Shown in pieces: positions 1 to 19,478 of a DNA stretch of 30,951 bases. Where the stretch lies: positions 1,847-32,797 of the forward strand of contig CAZRZQ010000003.1 of assembly GCA_964604585.1 (NCBI GenBank), written 5' to 3'. The notes below the pieces were generated by a model. The model did no database searches. It had not been told where the DNA came from and saw nothing but the letters and a program-made list of their open reading frames with translations. The DNA is from an uncultured Gammaproteobacteria bacterium. GTDB taxonomy: Bacteria > Patescibacteriota > Patescibacteriia > Magasanikbacterales > GWA2-37-8. The position numbers and the translations under genes were made by a program. Every line of letters begins with the position of its first letter. Within the stretch, counting starts at the first letter, position 1.

Positions 1-229
1 GATCGACGAGGTCTGCAACGGCCTCGACGACGACTGCGACGAGCAGACCGACGAGAGCCTGACGCGCCTCTGCTACACCGGTCCGGAAGGGACCGAGAGC
101 GTCGGTGTCTGCCACGGCGGCATCTCGACCTGCGTCCGGGGCCAGTGGGGCCTCTGCGTAGACGAAGTGCTCCCGATCGACGAGGTCTGCAACGGCCTCG
201 ACGACGACTGCGACGAGCAGACCGACGAG
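1..229 (+). repeat. 55-bp exact direct repeat (1-55 = 175-229), period 174 bp (58 aa)
   Basis: gatcgacgaggtctgcaacggcctcgacgacgactgcgacgagcagaccgacgag occurs at 1 and 175. Confidence 0.9.
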
Positions 230-1390: not shown

Positions 1391-1400
1391 TCGCGCGCCG

Positions 1401-1672
1401 GCCTGGCCCCGTAAGGCCGGGCTGACCTGACACTTTCGCCATGGCGGGAGTTGGGAGGGCTTCGGCCCCCGCTCTCGCCGGTTCGAATAGTTCGAAAAAT
1501 TAGAATCGCTTGACCCGCTTCGGCGGGATTGGCCCTGGCAATAGCCGGGGCATGGGGTCGGAGGCGTGAAAGATTTTTACGCCTTTCGCCCGTAGTTCTT
1601 TCGTCCCGACTAGTTCGGGACGGTGAGGAGAGGAGAATGAGACTTGTGCTTGTATAGGCAAAACTTCTCTCC
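1401..1672 (+). ncRNA. Candidate structured RNA or highly structured 3' UTR (tandem hairpins; family unknown)
   Basis: Hairpins at 1401-1422, 1443-1479 (C-UUCG-G loop), 1482-1496, 1514-1527 (C-UUCG-G loop), 1532-1551, 1562-1584, 1602-1622 and 1627-1672, with many G-U pairs. Confidence 0.45.
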
Positions 1673-1724
1673 AACCCTCACTTATATCCATGATTTACCT
1701 CGTGAATGTAAGTGAGGGTTTTTT
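1673..1724 (+). terminator. Intrinsic terminator
   Basis: aaccctcacttatat...atgtaagtgagggtt long stem ending in a T-run, followed by a T-rich tract. Confidence 0.8.
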
Positions 1725-1754
1725 GTTGCCTTTTTTCATTTTGTTTTTTAACTA

Positions 1755-1783
1755 TTGACATACTAACCTAGTATGATTATATA
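1755..1783 (+). promoter_or_regulatory. Sigma70-type promoter with a 7-bp inverted repeat in the spacer
   Basis: TTGACA (1755-1760), 17 bp, TATATA (1778-1783); catacta-acc-tagtatg at 1759-1775. Confidence 0.6.
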
Positions 1784-1847
1784 TATACTCTGGTCCTGTT
1801 GGTTGCCGGATGGTCCGGCGACAGCGGATAGACAGAGGAGGGTCAAG

Positions 1848-2396
1848 ATGCGTCTTAAGTGGTTCCTGGTGTTCACGGTCGTGTTTGGTCTGTCGATCGG
1901 CTGCGGGATCGAGGACGATGACGAGAAGGGGCGCAGGGCCGCCCCGCCCCAGCAGGTCGAGGATCGCGATGACGATGGCACGGATGACGGCCGTGAGGAC
2001 GTCGGGTGCCTCGCGTTCACCCTCGTGGTGGACCCGGGGTGCAGCGTGAGCCAGGTCTCGTTCTGGTCCGCGACAGGGAAGGACCCGATCTCGTTCTTCT
2101 CGCCGTCCAGCCAGATGAACGCGCGTGGGTTCGAGCGCAATTCGGCGCTCGAGGCCTGCTCGGTCACGCTCGACTGGCCCGGTCGGTGGGAGACCTGGGA
2201 GAACGACCGGCGGAATTTCCCGGGACCGAATGCGCCGACCGGGCACTGTGTCCTCGCCGGAGGCATTAACGTTCCCTTCGGGGAACTGAACGAGGGCGAG
2301 GCCGCCTACGGCTGTGCCCACGACGGGCGCACCAAGGACGGGGTTGTCGTCAACCCCTGTGCGGATGGTGGTTGCTACGCCGCTGCCCTCCGCTGA
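1848..2396 (+). CDS. Hypothetical Cys-rich lipoprotein-like protein (182 aa)
   Basis: GAGGAGG at 1835-1841 precedes ATG 1848 (in frame with track ORF 1773..2396). Signal-peptide-like MRLKWFLVFTVVFGLSIG-C, an acidic linker and 8 Cys; GC-rich codon usage. Confidence 0.75.
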   Translation: MRLKWFLVFTVVFGLSIGCGIEDDDEKGRRAAPPQQVEDRDDDGTDDGREDVGCLAFTLVVDPGCSVSQVSFWSATGKDPISFFSPSSQMNARGFERNSALEACSVTLDWPGRWETWENDRRNFPGPNAPTGHCVLAGGINVPFGELNEGEAAYGCAHDGRTKDGVVVNPCADGGCYAAALR

Positions 2397-2400
2397 AACT

Positions 2401-2446
2401 GTGCCGGAGGCGTGCGTTCGAAGTTCGGACGTGCGCCGCCGGCCAC
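2401..2446 (+). terminator. Long GC-rich hairpin after the lipoprotein gene (terminator or 3' stabiliser)
   Basis: gtg-ccgg-a-ggcgtgcgttcga-agt-tcggacgtgcgcc-g-ccgg-c-cac pairs over about 20 bp; AT-rich tract follows. Confidence 0.5.
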
Positions 2447-2530
2447 AACATATTTTGTTTAAAAATAAAACCACCTTGTCAGCGGTTTTTTTATTGTGTT
2501 TATTTTTTTTATTTCTCCTCTCTTCGTTTT

Positions 2531-3907
2531 TTACGCGTGCTCGGCGCTCCAGTAACCCCAGATCGCCCAGAACCACCAGATGACCGGGGTATGGTGGAGC
2601 ATATTGTCAGATAAAGAAAGGATTAGATAGACAAGAATGCTCAAGATAAAAATGGTGTTGGGCCATTTGTGTTTTTTACCGTATTGTATTTCTCGGTAGA
2701 GTAGGGTGGCGAAAATGGCGAGGTACAGCAGAAAACCAATGATACCGGTTTCAAAAGCAACTTTGAGATAGTCATTATGCGCCTCACTAGTATTATCCCA
2801 GATATTTCCCACTCCTTTACTAACATCCCAAACTGTTGCAAACGATCCGTAGCCATAGCCTAAGAGTGGGCGGTCACGGAAGAGTGGGAATACTTTGTTG
2901 GCGACGTCCCGTCGCCAAGCGATCGAATCCGCTTCGCGGTTGCGAGTAGTCAGTCTCGCGATTACCGAATTATTTTGGAGGTTAATATTAAAAGAACTGG
3001 TGAGCCAGTGGTTAATTGGAAAAAAGGAGGCGTAAAGAATGACTAGGATTGTTAAAGTGGAGAGGGTGGTTTTGGTTACTTTGATAAGGCCATAGGCGAC
3101 TAAGAAGAAAACAAAACCGATCCAGGCAATGCGGGTGTAGGTTAAGGTAATAATGGTGACCAGGAAAAGAAAAGCTAGAAAATACAGATCTTGTTGGTTT
3201 TTAAACCAAGCGTTGAACGGTTGAAAGAGCCAACGGTCTTTGTTTTTAAAAAAGGAGTCAAAGGCAAAGATAAAAAGTAGTAGAGCAAAAGTGGCGAGGA
3301 TATTCGGGTGAGCAAAGGTTCCATACAGGCGATTGGCGACGCCATCGATCATGAGGCCAGTGTGGGTGAAGTATTGGTAAACGGCGAGAGCGAGCGGGGG
3401 GAGGGCGCCGATAAGTAAAGTTTTCCGGAAATAGCGATCAAATTTAGTTGGGTATTTTAAGCGCATGACAAAAGTTACGCCAAAGAGGGCAAAGAGGTTG
3501 GCGGCTTTAAGTACCTCGGTAATAGTTGAACTTTTGTCAAAGGTGTAGGCATAGGTTATAGCGACCCAAGCGAGAAAGACGAGCCAAATTCGTCGGGCGG
3601 GGATCTGTTTCCAGTATTCGTGGTTTTTGATAAAAAACAAAATTGACCAAGCGAGTAAGATCAAAGAAATGCCGGCGTTAACATTAAAACGAAATTCATC
3701 TTCAGAAAGGACCACATAATCCCGCCAGTAATCTATGGTCGGACGGATAATTAGGAAAACCAGAAGGGCGTAATCACCGAAGAGTTTGTAAAGTAAGAAA
3801 AAGACTAACACCAAGAACGCCAGCACGTCGCCCGCGGTATAGGGGTTTACGATGGTAAAAAGGAGAAGGGCAATGAAAAAGAGGGCGTTGTATTTTAGGT
3901 TGGTCAT
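2531..3907 (-). CDS. O-antigen ligase / Wzy_C family membrane protein
   Basis: 458 aa, many hydrophobic helices; RLYGTFAHPNILA, TYTRIAW, RPLLGYGYGSF, AHNDYLKVAFETGIIG. Confidence 0.9.
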   Translation of the reverse strand: MTNLKYNALFFIALLLFTIVNPYTAGDVLAFLVLVFFLLYKLFGDYALLVFLIIRPTIDYWRDYVVLSEDEFRFNVNAGISLILLAWSILFFIKNHEYWKQIPARRIWLVFLAWVAITYAYTFDKSSTITEVLKAANLFALFGVTFVMRLKYPTKFDRYFRKTLLIGALPPLALAVYQYFTHTGLMIDGVANRLYGTFAHPNILATFALLLFIFAFDSFFKNKDRWLFQPFNAWFKNQQDLYFLAFLFLVTIITLTYTRIAWIGFVFFLVAYGLIKVTKTTLSTLTILVILYASFFPINHWLTSSFNINLQNNSVIARLTTRNREADSIAWRRDVANKVFPLFRDRPLLGYGYGSFATVWDVSKGVGNIWDNTSEAHNDYLKVAFETGIIGFLLYLAIFATLLYREIQYGKKHKWPNTIFILSILVYLILSLSDNMLHHTPVIWWFWAIWGYWSAEHA

Positions 3908-3996
3908 AAAGGCTTGTGGTTTATCCCTATGAGAGGACTACCAAAGGGTTTCCTCCCGCGGGAATGCCGCTTTTTTGTTTTTTAAAAGTTAGTTTG

Positions 3997-4005
3997 ATTA
4001 TATCA
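3997..4005 (-). promoter_or_regulatory. Extended -10 promoter element for the O-antigen-ligase gene
   Basis: TG-A-TATAAT on the minus strand, about 90 bp upstream of the start codon. Confidence 0.5.
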
Positions 4006-4068
4006 CAGTCATTCTTTAGAATAAAGGCATTTTGTGATAGAATTACTTTGTTATAATTATTACTTAAT

Positions 4069-5085
4069 ATGATCAAAGGAGAAAACGTTAGTAAAGAGAT
4101 TGTTATTTACGAGGATAAAAATGGCCAGGTGAAAGTTGAGGCCGAAGTAAGGAAAGAATCAGTGTGGTTAACACTAAACCAAATTGCCCAGTTATTTGCT
4201 ACCCATAAGTCTGGTATCTCTAGACATTTTAGCAATATATTCGAGAATGGTGAATTATCAAGAGAAGCAACTGTTGCAAAAATTGCAACAGTTCAACTAG
4301 AAGGTAAAAGACAAATAGAGCGTTTGGTTGAGTTTTATAATCTCGACGCTATTCTTTCTGTTGGTTACCGGGTTAATTCTAAAAGAGCCACCCAGTTTCG
4401 TATTTGGGCGACGGGGATTTTGCGTAAGCATATTCTAGAGGGGTATAGCCTTAATGAGAAGCGCCTGCTGGAGTTACGGGGTAGAGAATTAAATGAATTT
4501 GAACAAGCCGTATCCTTAGTGCGTAAAACAATTAGTAATCGCGAACTTAACGGTAGAGAGGCGGAAGGGATTTTAAGGGTAATAACTGATTATGCTAATA
4601 CCTGGGTTTTGTTGCAAAAATATGATGAAGATAAGATAGAATCGCCCATTAAGTTTACCAAGGTCAAAAGAGCGTTTGCTTATGAAGAAGCAGTAGGTTT
4701 AGTTAATGAATTAAAAAATAATTTGTTAGAAAAGAAAGAAGCCGGTGATTTATTTGGCCGTGAACGCGGAGAATCTTTTGGGGGGATTATCGCAACCCTT
4801 AGCCAGGCTTTTGCTGGTAAAGATTTATATCCAAGCGTGGAAGCAAAAGCAGCTCATTTGTTGTATTTTGTGATTAAGGACCATCCGTTTAGCGATGGCA
4901 ACAAACGCCTGGCTTCATTTTTGTTTGTAGTATTTTTAGCCCGCAACAAGAGTTTGCTAAAGAAGAATGGTGAAAAGAAAATCAATGACAATGCACTGGT
5001 CGCTTTAGCCCTTCTAATTGCGGAAAGTGAACCAAAGCAAAAGGAGGTTATGGTTAAGCTCATAATGAATTTTTTGGCAGGTTAG
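4069..5085 (+). CDS. RhuM-like N-terminal domain fused to a Fic/Doc domain
   Basis: VWLTLNQIAQLF and YNLDAILSVGYRVNSKRATQFRIWAT (RhuM-like); HPFSDGNKR (Fic/Doc motif). Confidence 0.9.
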   Translation: MIKGENVSKEIVIYEDKNGQVKVEAEVRKESVWLTLNQIAQLFATHKSGISRHFSNIFENGELSREATVAKIATVQLEGKRQIERLVEFYNLDAILSVGYRVNSKRATQFRIWATGILRKHILEGYSLNEKRLLELRGRELNEFEQAVSLVRKTISNRELNGREAEGILRVITDYANTWVLLQKYDEDKIESPIKFTKVKRAFAYEEAVGLVNELKNNLLEKKEAGDLFGRERGESFGGIIATLSQAFAGKDLYPSVEAKAAHLLYFVIKDHPFSDGNKRLASFLFVVFLARNKSLLKKNGEKKINDNALVALALLIAESEPKQKEVMVKLIMNFLAG

Positions 5086-5113
5086 TATCATTTATCGTTT
5101 TTTGTGTATTGGC

Positions 5114-5142
5114 TTGCCGGCAATGCTTTTTTCCGGTATAAT
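5114..5142 (+). promoter_or_regulatory. Sigma70-type promoter for the radical SAM-GT4-GHL15 operon
   Basis: TTGCCG (5114-5119), 17 bp, TATAAT (5137-5142). Confidence 0.65.
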
Positions 5143-5161
5143 AAAGGCATAATTTATCATT

Positions 5162-6166
5162 ATGGTCTGTCGCTTACCAGTTGATTGCGTTTTAGCTTTA
5201 ACCTATAACTGTAATTCCCGTTGCACGATGTGCGACATCTGGAAGATAAAAAACAGCCCCGAGTTACCACCCGAGGAATTTTTGAAATTACCGAGTAGTC
5301 TTCGAGATATTAACTTTTCGGGTGGGGAGCCATATTTACGGAAAGATTTAGTAGAAATTTTAAAAAATGTTGTTAAAGCGGTGCCAAAAGCCCGGATCAT
5401 AATTTCTTCCAATGGCTTTGCGACTGATTTAATTATTAATCGGACTAAAGAGTTATTAAAGATTAAACCAGACATTGGTATCGCTATTTCTATTGATGGC
5501 ATCGGAGAAATGCATAATGAAATGCGCGGTATTCCTGGCGGTTTTGATAAAGCGATTGAAACAGTAAAAAGACTGAAAGAAATTGGGGTGACAAAATTAC
5601 GTTTGGCTTATACCGCTACGGATAAAAATGTTAACCACCTGTCTAAGGTATATAACCTGAGTCGAGAACTCGGGATTGAATTTACCCATAGCTTTGCCCA
5701 AAGCTCGGAGTTTTATTTCGGTGGCAAGCAGAATGTCCATAACCCGAGGGGGGAAGTATTGAACAGGGAGTATGGTTACCTCATCAAGGAGGAATTAAAA
5801 AGTTGGAGTTTTAAACGTTGGGCCAGAGGTTACTTTGCTTATGGCATGCGCAAATTTGTGACGAGTAAAAACCCCATGTTATCTAACGCTCCGGGGAGAG
5901 ATTTTTTCTTTTTAGATCCGTCGGGAGATATCTATCCTTCCGTTGTTCACAATGTGGTTATTGGTAGTATTAAGAATATTCAAGACCAAAATACCCTCGA
6001 ACAATTTTGGTGTTCTACAGAAGCAGAAGTGGCCCGTCAGAAAGTTGATGATTTAAAGATGCCGGTTTGGATGATTTGTACGGCTCGGACGGCGATTAAA
6101 AAGCATCCCTTAAAAGCCGGCCTGTGGTTTATGAAACACAAACTTTATGCGCATTTTGCTAGTTAA
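5162..6166 (+). CDS. Radical SAM enzyme with a degenerate SPASM/twitch-like C-terminus
   Basis: CNSRCTMC (CxxxCxxC), FSGGEP, SIDG; C-terminal FFFLDPSGDIYPS. Confidence 0.9.
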   Translation: MVCRLPVDCVLALTYNCNSRCTMCDIWKIKNSPELPPEEFLKLPSSLRDINFSGGEPYLRKDLVEILKNVVKAVPKARIIISSNGFATDLIINRTKELLKIKPDIGIAISIDGIGEMHNEMRGIPGGFDKAIETVKRLKEIGVTKLRLAYTATDKNVNHLSKVYNLSRELGIEFTHSFAQSSEFYFGGKQNVHNPRGEVLNREYGYLIKEELKSWSFKRWARGYFAYGMRKFVTSKNPMLSNAPGRDFFFLDPSGDIYPSVVHNVVIGSIKNIQDQNTLEQFWCSTEAEVARQKVDDLKMPVWMICTARTAIKKHPLKAGLWFMKHKLYAHFAS

Positions 6167-9384: not shown

Positions 9385-9600
9385 ATGCGTTTTAGACAGT
9401 CATTATTTTGGGATGTTGACCCAAAAACAATTGATGAAAAAAAACACGCTCGGTACATTATTGAACGGGTTTTAGATTTTGGTAATGACAAAGAAGTACG
9501 CTGGGTTTATCATAATTTTTCACCGCGGGTTATTAAGGATGTGGTAAAAAAATCAAGAGTTATGCATAAAAAATCCAAAGCCCTATGGTCTCTAATATAG
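9385..9600 (+). CDS. DUF6922-like small protein, putative antitoxin
   Basis: LFWDVD...HARYIIERVLDFG pattern; overlaps the downstream nucleotidyltransferase by 16 nt. Confidence 0.8.
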   Translation: MRFRQSLFWDVDPKTIDEKKHARYIIERVLDFGNDKEVRWVYHNFSPRVIKDVVKKSRVMHKKSKALWSLI

Positions 9601-10262
9601 AATCTACTGAAGATTTGCATTTTGACTCACTCCCAAAGGCGACGCAAGAAGCTTTTTTGGTTTGTCAAAAGATGGACTTGTTTGCGAAAAATAACTGGTA
9701 TTTAGCTGGTGGCACGGCTTTGGCTTTACAAGTGGGGCATAGGCAATCAGTCGATCTGGATTTTTTTACGCCGAATAAAAAATTTAAAGAGATAGAAGTG
9801 GAACGGGAGTTGTTAAATACCGGGCTGTGGTCCACTACTTATAGAGAGAATGGTACAATTTATGGAGTATTTAATGGAGCTAAAATGAGTCTGATCGCTT
9901 ATCCTTTTTTCTTGCCGCAAAAGAATAAATTAAAAATTGGAAAGATAAAAATTTTGTTGCCCGTGGACATTGCTTCGATGAAGATAGTGGCTGTAAGCCA
10001 ACGTGGCCGCAAGCGTGATTTTTATGATTTGTATTGGTATTGTAAAAATATTGCTCCGCTAGGTGAAGTGATATTAAAAGCAGTTAACCAGTATCCTGGT
10101 CAGGAAAATAACGTCGCTCATATTCTTAAAAGTCTGGCTTATTTTACTGATGCAGAAAACGACCCTGATCCAAAAATTTACTTTAAGGCCAGTTGGTTGG
10201 AAGTGAAGAAATTTTTTCGTCAGGAGGTAAAAAGTTTGACTCCTAAAATTTTACAGTTTTGA
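9585..10262 (+). CDS. AbiEii/AbiGii-family nucleotidyltransferase (type IV TA toxin-like)
   Basis: YLAGGTALALQVGHRQSVDLDFF; KIVAVSQRGRKRDFYDLY. Confidence 0.9.
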   Translation: MVSNIESTEDLHFDSLPKATQEAFLVCQKMDLFAKNNWYLAGGTALALQVGHRQSVDLDFFTPNKKFKEIEVERELLNTGLWSTTYRENGTIYGVFNGAKMSLIAYPFFLPQKNKLKIGKIKILLPVDIASMKIVAVSQRGRKRDFYDLYWYCKNIAPLGEVILKAVNQYPGQENNVAHILKSLAYFTDAENDPDPKIYFKASWLEVKKFFRQEVKSLTPKILQF

Positions 10263-10489: not shown

Positions 10490-11380
10490 TTATTTCCCGG
10501 TAATCAAGCAAACGATTGGTCCGGTAATTTTTTTTTCATTTGTTAAATACTGTTGTAGGCCAACTAAACTTAAAATGCTGTTCGGAGACAAAACAATGTC
10601 TTCTTTTTCTTTTAGGAGAGTAAGTGTTTCTTGAATTTCTTCGTTAGTAGCTATCCAGGTGTTTCCTCGGCTTTCTTGTGCAGCATTGGCCACTGTAGTT
10701 TTGCGGTGGCCCACCTTATCTACAATGGCATCGGCTAAAGACAGTTTATTCGTGTCTGATGGTAGTTCTCCATTATGGTCTTCAACAAATGGATGGCAAG
10801 CGTCAGTTTGGACGATATGTATTTCTGGGTTTAAACCAAGTTTTTCGAATCCAAGATGCAATCCTAAAGCCGTCGTGCCACTCGAAGTGGGGATAAAAAT
10901 TGCCGCTACTGTGGGGAGCTCTTCCATTATTTCTTTAGCTAATTCCTCATAGCCAACAAGGGCCAGATCATCGGTGGATTGGCGCAAGTTTTTTACTTCT
11001 TCGTCTTTGTCCAACTGAAAAGCTACTTGTTTAGGATTCTTGACTTGTCGTAAAACAACGTTTTCATCCGTTAGGTTACGTAAAGCATTTATTTTTTCTT
11101 CATTAATATTTTCGCCAACTAGAATAAGAAGGGTGAGTTTGTTGTTATTATTTTTATTATAATCCGAGATATATAATCCCGCGGCCAGAGCGGCGTTGCC
11201 AGAAGAAGAAATGGTGAATTTGGTGTAACCTTGTTTTAAATAGTGTTCAATCATGAATGGAATCGATCTCCCCTTGTGGGACTTCAAAGGGTGAAGATCT
11301 TCGCGCTTAAAAAACAGCGACTCTTTTAGATTAAGAACTGTCTCGAGTTTTTCCATTCTTTGGAGAGGGGTTAAAGGCAT
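10490..11380 (-). CDS. Fold-type II PLP-dependent enzyme (threonine synthase / cysteine synthase-like; substrate unknown)
   Basis: FKREDLHPLKSHKGRS (PLP lysine region), SSSGNAALA, PTSSGTTALG, CLITG. Confidence 0.85.
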   Translation of the reverse strand: MPLTPLQRMEKLETVLNLKESLFFKREDLHPLKSHKGRSIPFMIEHYLKQGYTKFTISSSGNAALAAGLYISDYNKNNNNKLTLLILVGENINEEKINALRNLTDENVVLRQVKNPKQVAFQLDKDEEVKNLRQSTDDLALVGYEELAKEIMEELPTVAAIFIPTSSGTTALGLHLGFEKLGLNPEIHIVQTDACHPFVEDHNGELPSDTNKLSLADAIVDKVGHRKTTVANAAQESRGNTWIATNEEIQETLTLLKEKEDIVLSPNSILSLVGLQQYLTNEKKITGPIVCLITGK

Positions 11381-11382
11381 AT

Positions 11383-11411
11383 TTGACGTTTTAGGCTTTT
11401 TTTACTATACT
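11383..11411 (+). promoter_or_regulatory. Sigma70-type promoter for the LysW-like gene
   Basis: TTGACG (11383-11388), 17 bp, TATACT (11406-11411). Confidence 0.7.
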
Positions 11412-11453
11412 TAATTTCGCTTGTACATTACCTAACTTTAATTATTTGTAATT

Positions 11454-11618
11454 ATGAAGCTAACTTGCCCGGAGTGTAAAAATGAAGTGGATTTATCTAT
11501 TTACCCTAACTTGGCCAAAGGGGACGTAATTGAATGTGATAAATGCGGTATTACTCTTATGGTGACAAATATTGACGGAGACGAGGTAGTAGTCGAAATA
11601 GTGGACGAAGGAAAATAG
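11454..11618 (+). CDS. LysW-like zinc-ribbon protein, candidate amino-group carrier (54 aa; not in the ORF track)
   Basis: My translation: MKLTCPECKNEVDLSIYPNLAKGDVIECDKCGITLMVTNIDGDEVVVEIVDEGK*. The CPEC...GDVIECxxCG-L-V pattern and acidic tail match the LysW layout; it has its own promoter. Confidence 0.85.
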   Translation: MKLTCPECKNEVDLSIYPNLAKGDVIECDKCGITLMVTNIDGDEVVVEIVDEGK

Positions 11619-13025
11619 TTATTTTACCAATTCTTCAATCATCCCTCGGAAGCCGTGGCTACCGAGGAACACAACCACATCGTTTGGTTGTGTTTTGTTT
11701 TTGATATAAGTAATCAATTCGGCGTCTAGAGGTAAATATAAAACATTAGGGTGGGTTTTACTAATAATCTTGGTTAGTTCATCACCCTCAAGGCTCGTGT
11801 CATTTTCTTTGTTTTTTAATTTAGTCAGGCGGGGGATTATGACTTCAGTGGCATCGCTAAAAGCTTGGTCGTAAAAAGGAGCAGATTTTTTTTCGCGGTT
11901 GCCGGTATTAGGTTCAAAAATCGCGTAGATATTTCCAGTATAGATTTTTTTCAAGGCGTTTAAAGCCGACTTGGCTTTTGCTGGTGAATGAGCAATGTCA
12001 TCAAAGACATCGGCGCCGTTTAGAGTACCGCGTTTTTCCAGTCGGCGTTTTAAACCAGTAAATTTAGTTAAAGCAGTGATTATTTTTTTACTCGGTACGC
12101 CTATTTCACTCGCGAGCGCAAAAGCCCCACAAACATTCTCAGCCATGTATTCGCCGATAACTGGGACGTTTAGGTGATATAATTCGGCTTGATGGACGAT
12201 GTCCAAACTTAACCCGGTTTTGTTTTGCTGGATATTTAAGTAACAATAATCAGTTTGGGCGGAACGTCCATAGGAAACGAGTCGAGCAGCGAGGGGTGTC
12301 TCTTTGACCAACTTGTTTACATTGGTATTGTCGAGGCAAGCGACGATTAAACCAGATTTTGGTACCAGATTAAGTAATTCACTAAAAGCTCTGAAATAAT
12401 CGGTTTCAGTTTTATAAATATCAGCATGATCCCACTCTACCGCCGTTAGAAGTAAGTGGGTGGGGGAGTAGGATAAAAATTTTGGGCGGTTATCCCAACG
12501 AGCAGTTTTGTATTCGTCGCCTTCTAAAATACTCCACTCGGAATTATTTGGATTATCCGCGCTTAAGTCTAGATTTTTACTAATTCCCCCGAACATATAC
12601 GTGGGGTTATAACCAGATTCTTTTAATATCCAGGCAAGGAGAGTGGTGGAAGAGGTTTTGCCATAAGTACCAGCGCAAACAATCGAATTTTCTTTTACCA
12701 AATATCTGGCAATTAATTCTGGGTAGGAGACATATGGTAAGTTATTATCTTGGACATATTTCCATTCCGGGTTTTCTGACCCGGCCACATTTCCAACAAC
12801 CACCATGTATTCGTCGGTGGGGGTAGAATTATTTGTAAATTTTTCTAAAACTTTTTCCGGATGCCACCCTGGATAAAAAACAACGCCGTGTTTTTTTAGA
12901 TTGGTAGACACAGGTGGATAAAAACCCACGTCCGAACCAGTGACAACCCACCCTTTTTCTTTAAAAAGAATAGCGAGTGCGCTCATACCAACGCCACAGA
13001 TGCCGATGAAGTGGAGGTGTTTCAT
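11619..13025 (-). CDS. mpl: Mpl-like UDP-MurNAc:peptide ligase (MurC/Mpl family)
   Basis: GSDVGFYPPVS, GTYGKT, EGDEYKTARWDNRPKFLSYSP, EWDHADIY, DDIAHSP, FEPN and GSHGFRG fit Mpl better than MurC (from my recall of E. coli Mpl: GSDANVYPPMS, EADEY...DKRSKF, EFDHADIF). Confidence 0.8.
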   Translation of the reverse strand: MKHLHFIGICGVGMSALAILFKEKGWVVTGSDVGFYPPVSTNLKKHGVVFYPGWHPEKVLEKFTNNSTPTDEYMVVVGNVAGSENPEWKYVQDNNLPYVSYPELIARYLVKENSIVCAGTYGKTSSTTLLAWILKESGYNPTYMFGGISKNLDLSADNPNNSEWSILEGDEYKTARWDNRPKFLSYSPTHLLLTAVEWDHADIYKTETDYFRAFSELLNLVPKSGLIVACLDNTNVNKLVKETPLAARLVSYGRSAQTDYCYLNIQQNKTGLSLDIVHQAELYHLNVPVIGEYMAENVCGAFALASEIGVPSKKIITALTKFTGLKRRLEKRGTLNGADVFDDIAHSPAKAKSALNALKKIYTGNIYAIFEPNTGNREKKSAPFYDQAFSDATEVIIPRLTKLKNKENDTSLEGDELTKIISKTHPNVLYLPLDAELITYIKNKTQPNDVVVFLGSHGFRGMIEELVK

Positions 13026-13663
13026 ACAGCGTTTTTTAATTCATCTAAATCTAAGTTCCATTTTTTTTCGTCCCACCATTCTAATCCCGTAAACTGAATT
13101 TTATACAAAGCCGTTTCGTCTTTAACACTACCTAGGTAGACATATTTTTTATTCTTTTCCTTGGCTGAAGTTATTGCCTCGGTCATCATACCAATGCCAA
13201 GATTTGGTAAGTCAGTGTGTAAATTGTAAAAAGGATAAGAATAATGGAATAATTCATTGGTTTCTAAACAAATAGCATAACCAACCGGAATGTTGTTTAA
13301 GGTGTAGACAAGGAGCTGGTTAAAATTGGATTTGTCGGTTGTTAGTAATTCCTTTATTTTATTGGCGCTGAAAGTGCCGTCGCCAAATTTAGTGGTATAA
13401 AAGTCCTTGCCCAGTTTTCCGATTTCCCAGGTATATTTATCGTAGGGCAGGGGATGAGTAGTTAATTTAATTTCTTCATTTTTTCTTAAAATTCTTCGGT
13501 TTTCGCTCGTTAGTTCAAATTTTTCCAAGTTAATTCGTAAACTCCTGGTCTGGTAGAGGTAGCCTTTTTTGGTCCGACCAAAAAGCCAGCCTTGGTTGTA
13601 CAAGGCATTAAGATTACTATCGGAAAAGTCAGTCGTGGTTTGTTCTGCCCATTTTAAATACAT
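13022..13663 (-). CDS. ATE1/Bpt-like aminoacyl-tRNA transferase (GNAT fold)
   Basis: SLRINLEKF...NRRILRKN, YSYPFY...LGIGMM...AKEKNKKYVYLG...YK.F follow the ATE_N/ATE_C pattern; 4-nt ATGA overlap with mpl. Confidence 0.7.
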   Translation of the reverse strand: MYLKWAEQTTTDFSDSNLNALYNQGWLFGRTKKGYLYQTRSLRINLEKFELTSENRRILRKNEEIKLTTHPLPYDKYTWEIGKLGKDFYTTKFGDGTFSANKIKELLTTDKSNFNQLLVYTLNNIPVGYAICLETNELFHYSYPFYNLHTDLPNLGIGMMTEAITSAKEKNKKYVYLGSVKDETALYKIQFTGLEWWDEKKWNLDLDELKNAV

Positions 13664-13669
13664 AACAAG

Positions 13670-14800
13670 TTAGTAAAGAGCAACCCAAAGTCCTAGTAGT
13701 ACAGCGGCGGTATGCACAATCCAGAAACGCATGACGGTTTTTTCTTCACTCCAGCCGCGCAGTTCAAAGTGGTGGTGGAGCGGGGCCATTTTAAAAATGC
13801 GGCGACCGAGGATGTAGCGACCAAAGATTTGGATGATAACGCTCACCAGTTCAACATAAAAAATAAAAGCGAGAAGAGGTAATAGTACGAGTTGGTTCAT
13901 GACGATAATATTGATGGCGAGGAGTGCCCCGAGGCCGAGTGACCCAACATCGCTCATTTGAAAACGGGCCGGTTTGATATTAAAGTAAGTATAGGTAATT
14001 AAGGCACCGACAGTCGTGGCGTTTAAAAGGGTAATTTCATTTAATCCTTCCAGCCAGCTTAAAAGAGTTAAAGCCGAAAAAGTAATGATTAATGATCCGC
14101 CAGCTAAACCATCCATGCCGTCGGCGACATTAACGGCATTGGCGGTAAACATAACAAAGAAAATGATTAGTGGGATGATCCACCAACCGATGTTGATAAA
14201 CCCATCGAAAGGAATATGGATTTCACGCCAATTTTCACCGAGTTTAAAAAAGATCCACCAGGCCGTAATCGCGCCAGCGAGAAATTCAAGGAGTAGTTTC
14301 TCATGGACGTGTACCCCTTTACCAGGATGCGACCCCAACCAAAGAGAAATTCGTTTAAAAGCGGCCCACGGGAAAGTAACGATAAGCCAAATGCGATGCC
14401 AGATACTTTTGTGGACGCGGATTAAAGTAAGAATCTGACTAATTTTTCGGTTACGTCTCGGCGTACCAAAAATATTTAAGAGGTCGTCGACTCCGCCCAG
14501 GAATGACGACAGTAACATGACGCCGATTGGTACCCAGGTAAATTTACGTTCCCAGTTAAAAAGTATGGTAATTACTGCGACAGTTACGACCACCAAGAGT
14601 CCGCCCATAATCGGTGTGCCAGTTTTAGTTTGACGGCCATTTATACCGAGCGAGACGTCAAATTCATTGCGGCGGGTAATTTTGTATTTGTATAAAATCT
14701 TCGTAAGAAGCGGTGCCCAGAGAAAGGCAATCACACACGAAACTAAGCCAAAACTAATGGCTTTACGTAGTAATTCGAGGGTTTCTAGATTCATGGGCAT
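13670..14800 (-). CDS. mraY: Phospho-N-acetylmuramoyl-pentapeptide transferase with a large loop insertion
   Basis: KTGTPIMGG, GVDD, NAVNVADGMDG, MSDVGSLGLG, FKMAPLHHHFELRGWSE. Confidence 0.92.
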   Translation of the reverse strand: MPMNLETLELLRKAISFGLVSCVIAFLWAPLLTKILYKYKITRRNEFDVSLGINGRQTKTGTPIMGGLLVVVTVAVITILFNWERKFTWVPIGVMLLSSFLGGVDDLLNIFGTPRRNRKISQILTLIRVHKSIWHRIWLIVTFPWAAFKRISLWLGSHPGKGVHVHEKLLLEFLAGAITAWWIFFKLGENWREIHIPFDGFINIGWWIIPLIIFFVMFTANAVNVADGMDGLAGGSLIITFSALTLLSWLEGLNEITLLNATTVGALITYTYFNIKPARFQMSDVGSLGLGALLAINIIVMNQLVLLPLLAFIFYVELVSVIIQIFGRYILGRRIFKMAPLHHHFELRGWSEEKTVMRFWIVHTAAVLLGLWVALY

Positions 14801-15934: not shown

Positions 15935-16717
15935 TTACTTAAAGCAGTTCAATCTTTTTAAAATTAAGTCCTCGGCATTCTTGGCGTGGGTAAAAGTTTC
16001 GTTGTTATTACCGGTTTCATTTTTTTCTTCCCAAACTGCTTCCAAAAGCGGTTTTTTAGTGTCTGTGATTGTAATTCGACCGAGGCGTACACCGTGATCA
16101 TATTGTCCATCTTTTGACCACTGAAAAGAGTGAGCATAATTGATAGTGGTCGGGGTGTCCGCTTCTCTCTCTATTCTAGTAACGATTAAGACATGATTAT
16201 AGTCGTGTTTGGGTCCGGTTTTAAGCATTATGATCAGATCGCCGGCTCTGACATCTTCGTTTTTAATTTCATGGCTATTCTTTTCGTGGACGAGAGTACC
16301 AACACCGGTATTTTCAATCGGCCGGAGCCAAGCCAAAAGTTTTCTAAGCGGGCTTTTAATAAAGGGTCGCTTTAGATGTTTTTTTAAGGGTCCTAATTTT
16401 TTGCCCAAACTCTCCGCTTCTAAGAGATGATAGGCGAAACCAGAACAATCAGTACCTAAGTGGTGATTAGCTAAAAATTTTTTTAAATCACCAGAATCGA
16501 GTGTGCCTAGATCAATTTTTTCTCGAAGGGCGATTAGTTGTGCTTCTTCGGAAATTTCTTCGGCACCACCTTTTCCAACCAAAACTCGAAGAGCACCGCG
16601 TAGTCGCATGTGGCGGTTATTGAAATACGGGCAATTAACGGTGGCGTTAAAATTTGGTAGGTGTAAATAGTCAGCTAATACTTTTTTTGCCTCAGCGGTT
16701 AAATCACTCTGGATCAT
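15935..16717 (-). CDS. NlpC/P60-like (papain-fold) cysteine peptidase/amidase, no signal peptide
   Basis: GTDCSGFAYHLL (candidate catalytic Cys), then RAGDLIIM...NHVLIV (candidate His); 4-nt overlap with the upstream ATP-grasp gene. Confidence 0.65.
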   Translation of the reverse strand: MIQSDLTAEAKKVLADYLHLPNFNATVNCPYFNNRHMRLRGALRVLVGKGGAEEISEEAQLIALREKIDLGTLDSGDLKKFLANHHLGTDCSGFAYHLLEAESLGKKLGPLKKHLKRPFIKSPLRKLLAWLRPIENTGVGTLVHEKNSHEIKNEDVRAGDLIIMLKTGPKHDYNHVLIVTRIEREADTPTTINYAHSFQWSKDGQYDHGVRLGRITITDTKKPLLEAVWEEKNETGNNNETFTHAKNAEDLILKRLNCFK

Positions 16718-17967
16718 AATGCGTCAGTTAAAACAGTTTTAATTTTTTTACCGAGGGAATTTAGCTTTTCGTGGTTTTCTAAAACACCCGTTCGGCTTTG
16801 TAGGCGTAGCCAGTCGCTCTCTGTCTTTGTGTTGGAATAGACAAAGTACTTTAGTTTAAGTTTGTTTATTTTTATTTCGAGTTTTTTTAGATTTGGCATT
16901 TTTTTGACTACCTTTTGAATAATTTGTGCCCCGGTATTTATCTTAATTAGATTCGCTCCCTTTATGTTTTTATCTAGAAAAGATAGAAGGTGCGCCTCAA
17001 GCGTGGTTAGCCCACCCTTTTTTGTTTTTTTTCTAGTTTCATTTTGTAAAATACTTTCGTAAGTAGTGCTGGCGGGCTGTCGGGCGTTAATTTCGATTAA
17101 ATATAGTTTGTTATCTTCCGGGTTTAAAATGATATCAATACCAAAAAGACCGCGCCAACCGTTTTTTTGGAAGTGCCGGCCGATGTCTTTTGCTATTCTT
17201 TGGTAATTACGAATTTGTTTTTTAGTTAAGATTTTCGTTGGTAGCGCCCAGTCGTTTCCAATTGTTGCAAAAGAATTATTGGTAAAGGGGGATAAGCCCG
17301 TAATCTGGTAGTTAATATTCCCGACTAAAATTTTATTTTTCCACACTACATTGTTATTGGTAAACATCGGACCGGCAATGTATTTGGTTAAACGCGCTAA
17401 GCGTTTTGGAAATTTCTTTTTTAGTTCAGAAAGCTCAGATTCGGACTGGATAAGATAGGTGCCACTTCCGGTATGAGCGCGGTTGAATTGTAGAATAAAG
17501 GGCAAGGCGTTTTTTCCTTGGAAGGCGAATTTTGGCCAGGTGATTTTTTCTAAAGTTTTAATTTCGTGCGGGGGGAGGAACTTGTTTAAAGGGCCAAGCC
17601 ACTCAACTTGAGAAATTTTTTCTTCGACGAAGTTGGCGAAACTGGACTTGGGATTTAATAGCTCCCAGCTATTATTTTGGCAAATCTTTTCAATCACTGG
17701 GGTGTTTTTGAAAACTAGGATTCGGGGATCGTTCAATTTGTTTAAAAATGCCTTGGTTTGGTGGTGGCTAAGTAGCTCGTGGGTGTCTAAAAGCTTTTTT
17801 TCTTTAATAAGGAGGACATTGTCGAGCCCAGTACATTTTGACTTCACAAAGGGGGTAAAATTTGAGATAATATAATAACCCTTGGTATTTAGGGGTAAAC
17901 CAAGTGCCCGCTCGAGATCTCGGGTGACGTAAACTAGAGGGGTTTTACGTAAAAAGGATTCTAACAT
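16714..17967 (-). CDS. ATP-grasp ligase (417 aa; substrate unknown)
   Basis: ILQFNRAHTGSGT, TKYIAG, GLFGIDII, YLIEINAR. Confidence 0.85.
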   Translation of the reverse strand: MLESFLRKTPLVYVTRDLERALGLPLNTKGYYIISNFTPFVKSKCTGLDNVLLIKEKKLLDTHELLSHHQTKAFLNKLNDPRILVFKNTPVIEKICQNNSWELLNPKSSFANFVEEKISQVEWLGPLNKFLPPHEIKTLEKITWPKFAFQGKNALPFILQFNRAHTGSGTYLIQSESELSELKKKFPKRLARLTKYIAGPMFTNNNVVWKNKILVGNINYQITGLSPFTNNSFATIGNDWALPTKILTKKQIRNYQRIAKDIGRHFQKNGWRGLFGIDIILNPEDNKLYLIEINARQPASTTYESILQNETRKKTKKGGLTTLEAHLLSFLDKNIKGANLIKINTGAQIIQKVVKKMPNLKKLEIKINKLKLKYFVYSNTKTESDWLRLQSRTGVLENHEKLNSLGKKIKTVLTDAL

Positions 17968-18539: not shown

Positions 18540-19478
18540 ATGCAAGAAATATATAAAACACTAAAAACTTTCGGTAAAGTCAAAGTTAATGTCCCTTTGG
18601 CTCGTTTTACGACTTTTAAAATTGGCGGACCGGCTAAGTTTTACGTCGAGGTGGCCGGTAAGGATGAGACGGCAGGATTGTTAAATTTCTTGTCTAGCGA
18701 AGGGATGACTTTTTATATTTTAGGCAACGGGTCAAATGTGGTTTTCTCGGATGAAGGTTATGATGGTGTTGTGGTGCGCTTCAAAAATGAAGAAATAAAC
18801 TTGATGGGGAATACGATTATTGCGGGAGCCGGAGCGGCTCTCGCCAAAGTTGTAAACCTGGCCTCGCAAAATAGCCTAAGCGGGCTTGAATGGGCGGCTG
18901 GAGTACCGGGTACGGTTGGTGGCGCGGTGCGTGGTAACGCGGGGGCGATGGGAAAAGAAACTTCAAATTGTGTTTCGGAAGTAGAAGTTTGGCAAGATGG
19001 GGAGGTAAAAAATTGGACAGCGAAAGAGTGTGGATTCGGTTACCGGGATAGTGATTTTAAGAATAACCAAGCCGTAATTTTGGAGGTTAAGTACGTTTTG
19101 AATCCTGGGGATAAGGCAACAATTTTGGCAGAAATGCAAAAATATTTAAAACAACGTTCAGGGCGCTATCCCGCTTATCCCTCAGCGGGGAGTTTTTTCA
19201 AGAATGTTAAGGTGGCGGATTGGCCAGGAGATAAAAGTGAGCTGCCACCATTATATATTGAGCGCAAGATGATCCCGGTCGGTTGGCTGATCGAGGGTGT
19301 TGATTTAAAAGGATACGCGATTGGTGGCGCCAAGTTTTCTGAGGAGCATGGGAATTTTATTGTGAATTTTAATAACGCTACTCAAGCGGACATTGTGGCT
19401 TTAGTTGAAGAGGCTAAGTCTAGAGTGTATAATAAATATAAGGTGGGGATTGAACCGGAAGTGGAGATTGTTCAATAA
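18540..19478 (+). CDS. murB: UDP-N-acetylenolpyruvoylglucosamine reductase
   Basis: TTFKIGGPA, LGNGSN, GVPGTVGGAVRGNAGA, SAGSFFKN, HGNFIVN. Confidence 0.96.
   Translation: MQEIYKTLKTFGKVKVNVPLARFTTFKIGGPAKFYVEVAGKDETAGLLNFLSSEGMTFYILGNGSNVVFSDEGYDGVVVRFKNEEINLMGNTIIAGAGAALAKVVNLASQNSLSGLEWAAGVPGTVGGAVRGNAGAMGKETSNCVSEVEVWQDGEVKNWTAKECGFGYRDSDFKNNQAVILEVKYVLNPGDKATILAEMQKYLKQRSGRYPAYPSAGSFFKNVKVADWPGDKSELPPLYIERKMIPVGWLIEGVDLKGYAIGGAKFSEEHGNFIVNFNNATQADIVALVEEAKSRVYNKYKVGIEPEVEIVQ

What the first reader, a model, noticed from the sequence alone, without database searches (positions are those of the whole stretch)
11454..11618. Unannotated LysW-like carrier ending in DEGK instead of EDWGE
Seen: 54-aa ORF below the track cutoff, with a near-consensus promoter, two CxxC pairs and an acidic tail; its stop abuts the mpl stop with zero gap. 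Knowledge: LysW/AmCP carry substrates on the gamma-carboxyl of the C-terminal Glu in EDWGE, loaded by LysX-type ATP-grasps; no lysX/Z/Y/J/K is nearby. Inference: the terminal Lys changes the chemistry (tethering through the Lys epsilon-amine, an internal Glu, or after trimming), suggesting a distinct carrier class outside Lys/Arg biosynthesis.
Basis: partly seen in the sequence, partly recalled or inferred. Interest (0 to 1): 0.75.

Follow-up and report, generated by a model that had tools for sequence, protein, structure and literature searches.

The report
Lysine-ended LysW-like carrier protein
A 54-residue zinc-binding protein of an uncultured groundwater bacterium has the fold of the LysW amino-acid carrier but always ends in lysine instead of glutamate. 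It is genetically tied to a vitamin-B6 enzyme and an ATP-dependent ligase inside the cell-wall gene cluster, which points to an undescribed carrier-based step in making wall precursors.

Summary
ORF 11454..11618 (+) is a real, conserved gene for a four-cysteine zinc ribbon ending in DEGK.

- **Fold:** it passes Pfam's LysW globular-domain model, and its AlphaFold model matches solved LysW chains best (TM 0.68-0.74).
- **Not a LysW:** it fails both NCBIfam LysW models, lacks the C-terminal Glu, and the genome has no LysX, LysZ, LysY or LysJ.
- **Tail:** E52 and K54 are invariant in 87 orthologues. In more distant Patescibacteria families the tails read EEEK, LEEK, IEK, VQK or LGK, so only the terminal Lys is universal.
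- **Partners:** a threonine-synthase-like PLP enzyme sits divergently next to it in 79 of 80 loci. An ATP-grasp ligase co-occurs throughout, is adjacent to the PLP enzyme in distant lineages, and shares one reading frame with it in one genome.
- **Context:** the trio always lies among peptidoglycan precursor genes. Trio genomes mostly lack glutamate racemase (3/30 have it, against 119/271 others).
- **Complex model:** the DEGK tail sits at the PLP enzyme's active-site entrance (ipSAE 0.81; best control 0.02).

Best reading: a Lys-ended carrier or tail-presenting partner of these two enzymes in wall-precursor synthesis. The chemistry is inferred, not shown. I found no paper describing it.

The parts
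11454..11618 (+). Gene for the 54-aa LysW-fold zinc ribbon ending in DEGK (terminal Lys invariant)
   Evidence: AF2 model pLDDT 89.8. Best PDB fold hits are LysW chains.
11383..11411 (+). Promoter-like site TTGACG-17-TATACT upstream of the carrier gene
   Evidence: a consensus match only.
10490..11380 (-). Divergently transcribed fold-type II PLP enzyme, threonine-synthase-like, PLP lysine K36 in GSHKGRS; the predicted docking partner
   Evidence: Pfam PALP. The profile hits threonine synthases best in the PDB. It is adjacent in 79/80 loci and in the distant loci. Complex ipSAE is 0.81 against 0.02 for the best control.
16714..17967 (-). ATP-grasp ligase of the PurK/biotin-carboxylase/BtrJ/L-amino-acid-ligase structural group, pI 9.96; co-conserved third member of the trio
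15935..16717 (-). NlpC/P60-like cysteine peptidase with no obvious signal peptide (conserved DCSG Cys91, His175, His196); candidate release enzyme in the MurD-less lineages
13022..13663 (-). ATE/Bpt-like aminoacyl-tRNA transferase homologue; accessory member in the MurD-less lineages
11619..13025 (-). MurC/Mpl-like Mur ligase, convergent with the carrier gene (below both curated cut-offs)
   Evidence: MurC 266 bits against a cut-off of 335; Mpl 239 against 389.
13670..14800 (-). MraY, the genome's only MraY-type GT4 (the other GT4 is WecA-like)
18540..19478 (+). MurB

Best explanation
The ORF encodes a LysW-fold zinc-ribbon protein. It belongs to a Patescibacteria-wide family whose only universal tail feature is a C-terminal lysine. 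It works as a tail-presenting partner, most likely a covalent carrier, for two enzymes that always accompany it: a threonine-synthase-like PLP enzyme and an ATP-grasp ligase. The pathway feeds peptidoglycan precursor synthesis. The proposed mechanism below is inferred, not shown. First, the ATP-grasp activates a side-chain carboxyl of an acidic amino acid (Glu, possibly Asp) and joins it to the epsilon-amine of the terminal Lys. This is the reverse polarity of LysW, which ties up the substrate's amino group. The tethered amino acid therefore keeps a free alpha-amine and alpha-carboxylate, which is what a PLP enzyme needs. Second, the PLP enzyme converts it at C-alpha, most likely L to D. Third, the product (D-Glu) is released for the stem peptide. 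In lineages without MurD, including this one, the ATE/Bpt-like transferase may first add L-Ala from Ala-tRNA. The cytoplasmic NlpC/P60-like peptidase would then release L-Ala-D-Glu for the Mpl-like ligase.
For: Shown:
- Fold: it has the LysW fold (Pfam 33.5 bits against a cut-off of 27; profile-to-PDB best hits are LysW 3wwl and 5k2m; Foldseek top hits are LysW chains at TM 0.68-0.74).
- Tail: the terminal Lys is invariant in 87 orthologues and in all distant family members found.
- PLP enzyme link: the PLP enzyme is divergent and adjacent in 79/80 loci and in the distant loci, where it is only 27-33% identical to the window's enzyme.
- ATP-grasp link: the ATP-grasp is co-conserved (54/80 loci, many of the others cut by contig ends). 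It sits directly next to the PLP enzyme in other families and shares one 680-aa frame with it in G073.
- Co-occurrence: a K-ended ribbon was found in 26 of 30 sampled genomes that have both enzymes, and two of the four misses are cut by contig ends.
- Complex model: ipSAE 0.81/0.83/0.80 against a best control of 0.02. That mark was reached by 58 of 80 solved complexes and 2 of 110 mismatched pairs. The interface includes tail residues 51-54 and PLP-enzyme S58 of the SSSGN substrate loop, plus the family-specific loop 220-228.
- Competent enzymes: PLP Lys36 and S60-G61-N62 are conserved (K36, S60 and G61 invariant; N62 in 46 of 47). ATP-grasp K117, D278, E292 and N294 are invariant.
- Charge: the carrier is acidic (pI 4.1) and the ATP-grasp very basic (pI 10.0).
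- Context: every locus lies among mraY, mur ligase or murB genes.
- Missing racemase: Asp/Glu racemase was found in 3/30 trio genomes against 119/271 others (Fisher p=3e-4, kin not independent). In the MurD-containing trio lineages Alr is kept in 13/15 but MurI in only 2/15.

Precedent (partly my own knowledge): Swiss-Prot BtrJ, '[butirosin ACP]--L-glutamate ligase', is a fold neighbour of the ATP-grasp (TM 0.65). To my knowledge, in butirosin synthesis a PLP enzyme then acts on the gamma-tethered Glu.
Against: No adduct, activity or transcript has been observed, and no RNA run holds the locus. The complex model shows docking, not chemistry. The same pose would fit a non-covalent regulatory plug. 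PurK-type enzymes are the best fold matches of the ATP-grasp, slightly ahead of the peptide and amino-acid ligases. The substrate identity (Glu) rests only on the gene-absence pattern. About 56% of sampled Patescibacteria lack a recognisable MurI anyway, and three trio genomes have one. The own genome has a weak MurI-like fragment at a contig edge. It is unclear why a racemisation would need a carrier. Synteny within the own order could partly reflect shared descent, though the rearranged yet still linked trio in other families argues otherwise.
Confidence: 0.5

Rival explanations
1. Non-covalent regulator or plug. The terminal Lys carboxylate and side chain insert into the PLP enzyme's active site and switch it on or off, or scaffold it with the ATP-grasp. 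This would resemble the C-terminal tail of serine acetyltransferase plugging CysK in the cysteine synthase complex. No substrate is ever attached.
For: The complex model places tail residues 51-54 against the substrate loop (S58) at the active-site entrance. This is the geometry known for CysK with the SAT C-terminal Ile (my own knowledge). A free C-terminal carboxylate plus one fixed residue is all that such plugs need, and that fits 'only the terminal K is universal'.
Against: It does not explain why an ATP-grasp ligase is always in the set and is once fused to the PLP enzyme. It does not explain why the scaffold is the LysW carrier fold with an acidic surface. A regulator would seldom stay so tightly linked for so long with a 1:1 gene ratio.
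Confidence: 0.2
2. Scaffold peptide of the pearlin/RiPP type. The terminal Lys itself, re-added by the ATP-grasp after each round, is chemically converted on the protein and then cut off. The product would be a small molecule such as a diamino acid for position 3 of the stem peptide, or another metabolite.
For: A small ribosomal protein sits with a ligase, a modifying enzyme and, in this lineage, a cysteine peptidase and an aminoacyl-tRNA transferase homologue. MurE here lacks the usual DNPR/DNPA diamino-acid motif, so the position-3 residue may be unusual.
Against: A fold-type II PLP enzyme needs a free alpha-amine, and a C-terminal Lys in peptide linkage does not offer one. The folded, conserved zinc ribbon is unlike a leader peptide. 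The peptidase and the transferase are missing from the trio in many families.
Confidence: 0.1
3. LysW-like tethering through an internal Glu (E52), or through a new C-terminal residue exposed after the Lys is trimmed. In this reading the Lys is only a recognition or protecting element.
For: E52 is invariant in the DEGK group, and most distant tails are rich in Glu.
Against: Tails such as YVQK, MIQK and NLGK have no Glu at the equivalent place. Trimming would expose G, E or Q in different lineages, so no common attachment group results. No RimK/LysX-type ligase is present.
Confidence: 0.08
4. An ordinary LysW/ArgW amino-group carrier of lysine or arginine biosynthesis with a drifted tail.
For: The Pfam LysW domain hit and the LysW fold. 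A few MAG annotations call orthologues LysW.
Against: Both NCBIfam LysW models are far below their cut-offs (31 bits against 75; 24 against 53). The C-terminal Glu is absent. No LysX, LysZ, LysY or LysJ homologue is in the 93%-complete genome. The tail is conserved, not drifting.
Confidence: 0.02
5. A generic small zinc ribbon, for example nucleic-acid binding, whose neighbourhood is conserved by descent only.
For: Small CxxC ribbons are common, and some sources name orthologues 'S27E' or 'Zn ribbon nucleic-acid-binding protein'.
Against: Linkage to the PLP enzyme survives rearrangements across families where the proteins are only about 30-40% identical. The protein is acidic. The invariant C-terminal residue and the confident, control-checked interface also argue against it.
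Confidence: 0.05

Closest known systems
LysW/ArgW amino-group carrier proteins (AmCP) with LysX/ArgX, LysZ, LysY, LysJ and LysK (Thermus, Sulfolobus, Thermococcus)
   Same: Same about 54-aa four-Cys zinc-ribbon fold with an acidic surface and a flexible C-terminal tail that enters partner active sites. An ATP-grasp enzyme belongs to the gene set.
   Different: The tail ends in Lys, not Glu; the LysW paper read here shows the substrate on the C-terminal Glu (PMC12998189). The NCBIfam LysW models are not met. The ATP-grasp is not RimK/LysX-type. The main partner is a fold-type II PLP enzyme, which no LysW pathway has. The context is peptidoglycan, not Lys/Arg synthesis.
BtrI-BtrJ-BtrK of butirosin side-chain synthesis (ACP, ATP-grasp Glu ligase, PLP decarboxylase)
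   Same: The logic is the one proposed here. An ATP-grasp tethers Glu by its gamma-carboxyl to a carrier, and a PLP enzyme then works on the free alpha centre (my own knowledge). BtrJ is a fold neighbour of the ATP-grasp (TM 0.65).
   Different: The carrier there is a phosphopantetheinyl ACP (thioester), not a zinc ribbon with a Lys amine. The PLP enzyme is a decarboxylase of another fold. It is secondary metabolism in Bacillus-type bacteria.
CysO-CysM (Mycobacterium) and the CysK-serine acetyltransferase tail complex
   Same: A fold-type II PLP enzyme accepts the C-terminal tail of a small partner protein in its active site (my own knowledge). The predicted interface here has that geometry.
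   Different: CysO is a beta-grasp protein with a GG-thiocarboxylate activated by an E1-like enzyme. The SAT tail is purely regulatory. Neither involves an ATP-grasp or a terminal Lys.
Aslfm/Racfm (Enterococcus faecium D-aspartate ligase plus aspartate racemase)
   Same: An ATP-grasp joins the side-chain carboxyl of an acidic D-amino acid to a Lys epsilon-amine in a peptidoglycan precursor, and is paired with a racemase (my own knowledge).
   Different: The acceptor Lys there is in UDP-MurNAc-pentapeptide, not in a protein. The racemase is of the Asp/Glu racemase family and acts on the free amino acid. No sequence relation was tested here.
Pearlin scaffold peptides (e.g. TglA) and graspetide precursors
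   Same: A small ribosomal product whose C-terminus is the site of enzyme chemistry, with ligases and peptidases in the cluster.
   Different: Those are unfolded peptides with leader and core regions. The ligases are LanB-like tRNA-dependent or RimK-like ATP-grasp enzymes. No PLP enzyme docks on them.

Membership tests
LysW/AmCP | Four-Cys zinc-ribbon globular domain (Pfam PF21344) with the LysW fold | tested here: met
   33.5 bits against a cut-off of 27. Foldseek top hits are 3vpb_E, 3wwl, 3wwn_B, 5eio_C and 5k2m at TM 0.68-0.74.
LysW/AmCP | Scores above the curated NCBIfam LysW models (TIGR01206, NF041070) | tested here: not met
   24.2 bits against 53.2, and 31 against 75.
LysW/AmCP | C-terminal Glu (EDWGE-type tail) whose gamma-carboxyl carries the substrate | tested here: not met
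   The tail is DEGK. The terminal K is invariant in 87 orthologues and in all distant members.
LysW/AmCP | RimK/LysX-type ATP-grasp loader in the genome | tested here: not met
   PF08443 has no match in the 93%-complete genome, while 13 of 14 control genomes match.
LysW/AmCP | Downstream LysZ (ArgB-type kinase), LysY (ArgC-type reductase) and LysJ (class III aminotransferase) | tested here: not met
   TIGR00761, TIGR01850 and PF00202 have no match.
LysW/AmCP | Substrate covalently attached to the tail | not testable with these tools
   This needs intact-protein mass spectrometry.
CysO/ThiS-type sulfur carriers with CysM | Beta-grasp fold with a C-terminal Gly-Gly | tested here: not met
   The fold is a zinc ribbon and the tail ends in Gly-Lys. 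Only the PLP-enzyme docking is analogous.
BtrI/BtrJ/BtrK-type carrier pathway | Phosphopantetheinyl ACP carrier | tested here: not met
   There is no ACP domain, and Pfam gives only zinc-ribbon families.
BtrI/BtrJ/BtrK-type carrier pathway | BtrJ-like ATP-grasp ligase | tested here: inconclusive
   BtrJ ranks 17th in Swiss-Prot models at TM 0.65, and PurK-type enzymes score slightly better.
Threonine synthase (for the partner enzyme) | Phosphate-binding Arg of the N-S-x-N-P-x-R motif | tested here: not met
   In the profile alignment to 2zsj and 2d1f the TS Arg aligns to Ala/Leu of the family's 'STDDxAL' stretch. The assignment of that Arg as phosphate-binding is from memory.
Graspetide/RiPP precursor | Unfolded leader-core peptide modified by a RimK-like ATP-grasp | tested here: not met
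   The zinc ribbon is confidently folded (pLDDT 89.8), and no RimK-type domain is in the genome.

The most novel reading that the evidence does not exclude
A new class of protein carrier with reversed polarity, a 'carboxyl-group carrier protein'. Its C-terminal Lys amine tethers Glu through the gamma-carboxyl so that a threonine-synthase-derived PLP enzyme can epimerise it on the carrier. This would give many Patescibacteria a MurI-independent route to D-Glu. In lineages that have also lost MurD, it would give a route that assembles L-Ala-D-Glu on the carrier with an aminoacyl-tRNA transferase and then hands it to an Mpl-like ligase. That amounts to a previously unknown way of building the peptidoglycan stem peptide.
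Probability: 0.25. Interest if true: 0.9.

Novelty: new variant of a known kind. Interest (0 to 1): 0.78.

Why it matters
Peptidoglycan precursor synthesis is among the best-known and most drug-targeted pathways in bacteria, and it is assumed to be nearly invariant. In this case a whole set of uncultured, ultra-small bacteria lacks MurD and/or glutamate racemase, yet keeps MurB, MraY, MurE and MurF. These genomes always carry a LysW-fold protein with a lysine tail, a PLP enzyme and an ATP-grasp ligase in the wall cluster. If the protein is a carrier, it extends the carrier-protein principle of LysW to a new attachment chemistry, a new enzyme partner class and a new pathway. It would also give a concrete, testable answer to how these organisms obtain the D-Glu position of their stem peptide. 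The three proteins are small and soluble, so the idea can be tested in E. coli without cultivating the organism.

Tried and rejected
- **True LysW pathway:** rejected. There is no LysX, LysZ, LysY or LysJ, and the curated LysW models fail.
- **DEGK as the family signature:** rejected after reading distant loci. Only the terminal K is universal.
- **The trio as a simple MurD substitute:** rejected. Half of the trio genomes keep MurD.
- **PLP enzyme as an alanine-racemase substitute:** not favoured. Alr is kept in 13/15 MurD-containing trio genomes. However, it is mostly missing (found in 1/15) in the MurD-less ones, which remains unexplained.
- **LysX-like nature of the ATP-grasp:** not found. 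There is no sequence hit in the PDB, and LysX/RimK are not among the top 50 fold hits.
- **Literature:** six searches found no paper on Lys-ended LysW-like proteins or on this trio.
- **Carrier with ATP-grasp complex:** could not be run.
- **Carrier next to the PLP enzyme in G219 (L118) and G072 (L116):** not found. G020 and G073 are cut by contig ends.

Full report
**1. The observation**

The window carries an ORF at 11454..11618 (+) of 54 codons. It has CxxC pairs at residues 5-8 and 28-31 and ends in V-D-E-G-K. Its stop ends at 11618, and the convergent Mur-ligase ORF occupies 11619..13025 (-), so the two genes abut with no gap. A TTGACG-17-TATACT site lies at 11383-11411 (10 of 12 matches). 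The region has no more promoter-like sites than shuffled sequence, so this counts only as a consensus match.

The window is contig 3 of a 0.92-Mb, 93%-complete genome from a groundwater metagenome. Homologues come from Magasanikbacteria, Parcubacteria and other Patescibacteria MAGs.

**2. It is a real, conserved gene with the LysW fold**

- A word-indexed search found 103 homologues with E<=1e-10, nearly all 53-56 aa.
- In an alignment of 87 of them, C5, C8, C31, E52 and K54 are invariant, and C28, D51 and G53 are at least 90% conserved. The stretch before the tail is variable.
- Pfam's LysW globular-domain model is passed (33.5 bits; cut-off 27).
- A profile of the family finds Thermus LysW (3wwl) and Thermococcus LysW (5k2m) as its best PDB sequence hits.
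- The AlphaFold2 model (pLDDT 89.8) has LysW chains as hits 1-4, 6 and 8 in the PDB, with TM 0.68-0.74 and rmsd 1.4-2.6 Å over most of its length.

**3. It is not a LysW**

- Both curated NCBIfam LysW models are far below their cut-offs.
- The defining C-terminal Glu is replaced. In the LysW paper read here, the substrate sits on the C-terminal Glu of LysW (PMC12998189).
- The own genome has no RimK/LysX-type ATP-grasp, no ArgB/LysZ, no ArgC/LysY and no class III aminotransferase, although the control genomes match each of these models.

**4. What travels with it**

Eighty species-level loci were fetched with a family profile (215 matched).

| Neighbour of the carrier gene | Loci of 80 |
|---|---|
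| PALP-family PLP enzyme, divergently adjacent | 79 (the one miss is cut by a contig end) |
| Mur ligase downstream | 76 |
| ATE/Bpt-like transferase | 68 |
| MraY | 67 |
| NlpC/P60-like protein | 56 |
| ATP-grasp | 54 |
| MurB | 43 |

Many of the shortfalls are short contigs.

In a 301-genome sample of the phylum, the DEGK form is confined to the own order (6/6 sampled relatives; 0/10 other genomes of the class). Weaker matches occur in three other families. In those distant loci the small protein is 33-41% identical to the window's carrier and the PLP enzyme 27-33% identical to the window's enzyme. The gene order is different, but the PLP enzyme is still divergent and adjacent, and the ATP-grasp now lies directly beside it in the same operon.

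Searching the same sample with profiles of the two enzymes found the PLP enzyme in 33 genomes and the ATP-grasp in 41, with both in 30, mostly side by side. Reading 18 further such loci showed a small four-Cys ribbon next to the PLP enzyme in almost every case. In all, 26 of the 30 genomes have it, two more are cut by contig ends, and two were not resolved. In one genome (G073) the PLP enzyme and the ATP-grasp lie in a single 680-codon frame.

**5. The tail**

Across these lineages the tails read VDEGK, VEEGK, VEEEK, IEEEK, ILEEK, LEEEK, VDEEK, INEEK, LMIEK, LMIQK, LLVEK, LYVQK and TNLGK. The only universal feature is the terminal Lys. An internal Glu cannot be the common attachment site, and trimming would expose G, E or Q in different lineages. 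The Lys itself, through its epsilon-amine and/or its free carboxylate, must be the functional group.

**6. The partners**

*The PLP enzyme (10490..11380, -)*

- It keeps the PLP lysine (K36 in GSHKGRS), the S-S-S-G-N substrate loop and the glycine-rich phosphate loop.
- Its profile hits threonine synthases best in the PDB (E 1e-25 to 1e-23). Ser/Thr dehydratases and PALP-type Asp and Ser racemases follow.
- In the alignment to threonine synthases, the Arg of their N-S-x-N-P-x-R motif is not matched, and a family-specific loop D221-x-V-A-H-R226 appears. From memory, that Arg binds the substrate phosphate.

*The ATP-grasp (16714..17967, -)*

- It folds confidently (pLDDT 92) and has the invariant Lys/Asp/Glu/Asn set of active ATP-grasp enzymes.
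- It has no sequence hit in the PDB.
- By fold it is closest to PurK, biotin carboxylase, PurT, L-amino-acid ligase 3vot and a Streptomyces ATP-grasp peptide ligase (TM 0.6-0.67). LysX/RimK are not among the top 50.
- Among Swiss-Prot models, BtrJ, the '[butirosin ACP]--L-glutamate ligase', is a neighbour (TM 0.65).
- The carrier is acidic (pI 4.1) and the ATP-grasp strongly basic (pI 10.0).

**7. Docking test**

The scores were ipSAE 0.81, 0.83 and 0.80, and the best of three controls was 0.02. In the tool's calibration that mark was reached by 58 of 80 solved complexes and 2 of 110 mismatched pairs. The counts hold only roughly here, because my own alignments and small molecules were used.

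The confident interface comprises carrier residues 16, 18, 25-27, 31-34 and the tail 51-54. On the enzyme it comprises S58 (the first residue of the substrate loop), 89, 91, 115-118, 121-122, 197 and 220-228. Most of these enzyme positions are well conserved in the family (S58, G89, P116, Q118, P197, V220), although a few (91, 115, 222, 228) vary.

No LysW complex with a PALP enzyme has been solved, so this is unlikely to be recall. The model supports binding with the tail at the active-site entrance. It does not show chemistry.

**8. The pathway context**

The own genome has MurB, MraY (the other GT4 is WecA-like), MurE, MurF, Ddl, FolC and one MurC/Mpl-like ligase. It has no MurD, no Alr and only a weak MurI-like fragment at a contig edge.

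Over the phylum sample, the background tallies include one unpublished genome, G154:

| Gene | 30 trio genomes | 271 other genomes |
|---|---|---|
| MurD absent | 15 | 44 |
| Asp/Glu racemase present | 3 | 119 |

Two configurations emerge.

- **(A) Trio with MurD present.** The ATE-like and NlpC-like genes were not detected beside the trio. In this group Alr is kept in 13/15 genomes but MurI in only 2/15.
- **(B) Trio without MurD.** The ATE-like transferase, the NlpC/P60-like peptidase and the Mpl-like ligase sit in one cluster, and Alr is almost never present (1/15). This covers the own order and the sampled families labelled f42, f49 and f66 in the search output. In the single f49 locus read (L098) the ATE-like gene itself was not detected.

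These genomes are relatives of one another, so the Fisher values (p=3e-4 and 7e-5) overstate the evidence. At family level the trend is only suggestive.

The NlpC/P60-like protein keeps the DCSG catalytic Cys and two His residues in 57 sequences and has no obvious signal peptide.

**9. Most likely mechanism (inferred)**

The ATP-grasp joins a side-chain carboxyl of Glu (or Asp) to the epsilon-amine of the terminal Lys. This is the reverse of LysW, which masks the substrate's amino group. Here the alpha-amine stays free, as a PLP enzyme requires. The docked PLP enzyme then acts at C-alpha, most plausibly inverting L to D, which would fill the missing MurI function.

In configuration B the steps would continue as follows:

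1. The ATE/Bpt-like enzyme adds L-Ala from Ala-tRNA. Characterised relatives of this enzyme recognise an N-terminal Asp or Glu (my own knowledge).
2. The NlpC/P60-like enzyme cuts the gamma-glutamyl-Lys bond.
3. The Mpl-like ligase puts L-Ala-D-Glu on UDP-MurNAc.
4. MurE and MurF continue as usual.

Precedents for the separate parts exist:

- LysW/LysX: a zinc-ribbon carrier with an ATP-grasp.
- BtrI/BtrJ/BtrK: gamma-tethered Glu followed by a PLP enzyme.
- CysO/CysM and CysK/SAT: a tail in a PALP active site.
- Aslfm: an ATP-grasp acylating a Lys epsilon-amine in a wall precursor.

I put about 0.5 on 'carrier or substrate-presenting partner of these two enzymes in a wall-linked pathway' and about 0.25 on the specific D-Glu scheme.

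**10. Rivals**

- A non-covalent plug or regulator of the PLP enzyme fits the docking pose. It leaves the ever-present ATP-grasp and the carrier fold unexplained (0.2).
- A pearlin-like scaffold whose Lys is itself converted and cut off is chemically awkward for a PALP enzyme (0.1).
- Internal-Glu or post-trimming tethering is contradicted by the tail survey (0.08).
- A true LysW (0.02) and a generic zinc ribbon (0.05) are contradicted by sections 3 and 4.

**11. Novelty and verdict**

Six literature searches found nothing on Lys-ended LysW-like proteins or on this gene trio, so in the libraries searched it is undescribed.

Earlier notes of this scan on the same window had already proposed a non-canonical stem-peptide pathway and had noted the lack of MurD. 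My data agree and add four things: the PLP-enzyme partnership, the phylum-wide K-ended family, the two configurations and the MurI pattern.

The fold and the carrier idea are known. The tail chemistry, the partner enzymes and the pathway are not, so I class it as a new variant of a known kind. It is of high interest because three small soluble proteins make it directly testable.

Noticed in passing
window 1-3000: The first 3 kb have 54-68% G+C against about 40% for the rest of the window. This could be foreign DNA or a chimeric join at the contig end.
   Followed up: partly
L113 (G073:C36) 3773-5812, minus strand: The PLP enzyme and the ATP-grasp lie in one 680-codon open frame, cut by the contig end. 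This looks like a natural fusion of the carrier's two partners.
   Followed up: partly
L002 16118-16165 onward; L005 12351-14000; several loci: In many relatives the ATP-grasp is 540-680 aa long and carries a NUDIX domain. A separate NUDIX gene often sits between the carrier gene and the Mur ligase. The role of a nucleoside-diphosphate hydrolase here is unexplained.
   Followed up: no
L093 (G000:C4:2492-3784): The genome's MurE has T-D-V-N-C-F-D-E-D-P where DAP- or Lys-type enzymes have DNPR or DNPA. The position-3 residue of the stem peptide may therefore be unusual.
   Followed up: no
G000 whole genome; C18:35-226: The genome has no MurD and no Ala_racemase_N match, and only a weak 64-position MurI-like fragment at a contig edge, yet it has Ddl, MurE and MurF. 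The MurD-less trio lineages almost all lack Alr as well (present in 1/15), so their D-Ala source is unknown.
   Followed up: partly
window 11451-11480, minus strand: A promoter-like site TTTACA-18-CATAAT for the divergent PLP-enzyme gene lies inside the first codons of the carrier gene. The two genes therefore share an overlapping control region.
   Followed up: no
window 4069-5085 and 9385-10262: There is a Fic/RhuM-family gene, and an AbiEii-type nucleotidyltransferase toxin gene with a small upstream ORF. These are mobile or defence-type genes just upstream of the wall cluster.
   Followed up: no
proteins P0125, P0129, P0135, P0136, P0149, P0153, P0155: Other LysW-like ribbons exist with different ends. 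Some are tandem arrays of up to 12 ribbons in one 1052-aa protein, some are doublets ending in EEEK, and some are single ribbons with long poly-Asp/Glu tails. The LysW fold seems to have several undescribed tail classes.
   Followed up: no
loci L013-L092 record titles: Many MAGs that carry this Patescibacteria-type cluster are titled 'uncultured Gammaproteobacteria bacterium' or 'Candidatus Udaeobacter' in their records. These are probably wrong taxonomic labels.
   Followed up: no
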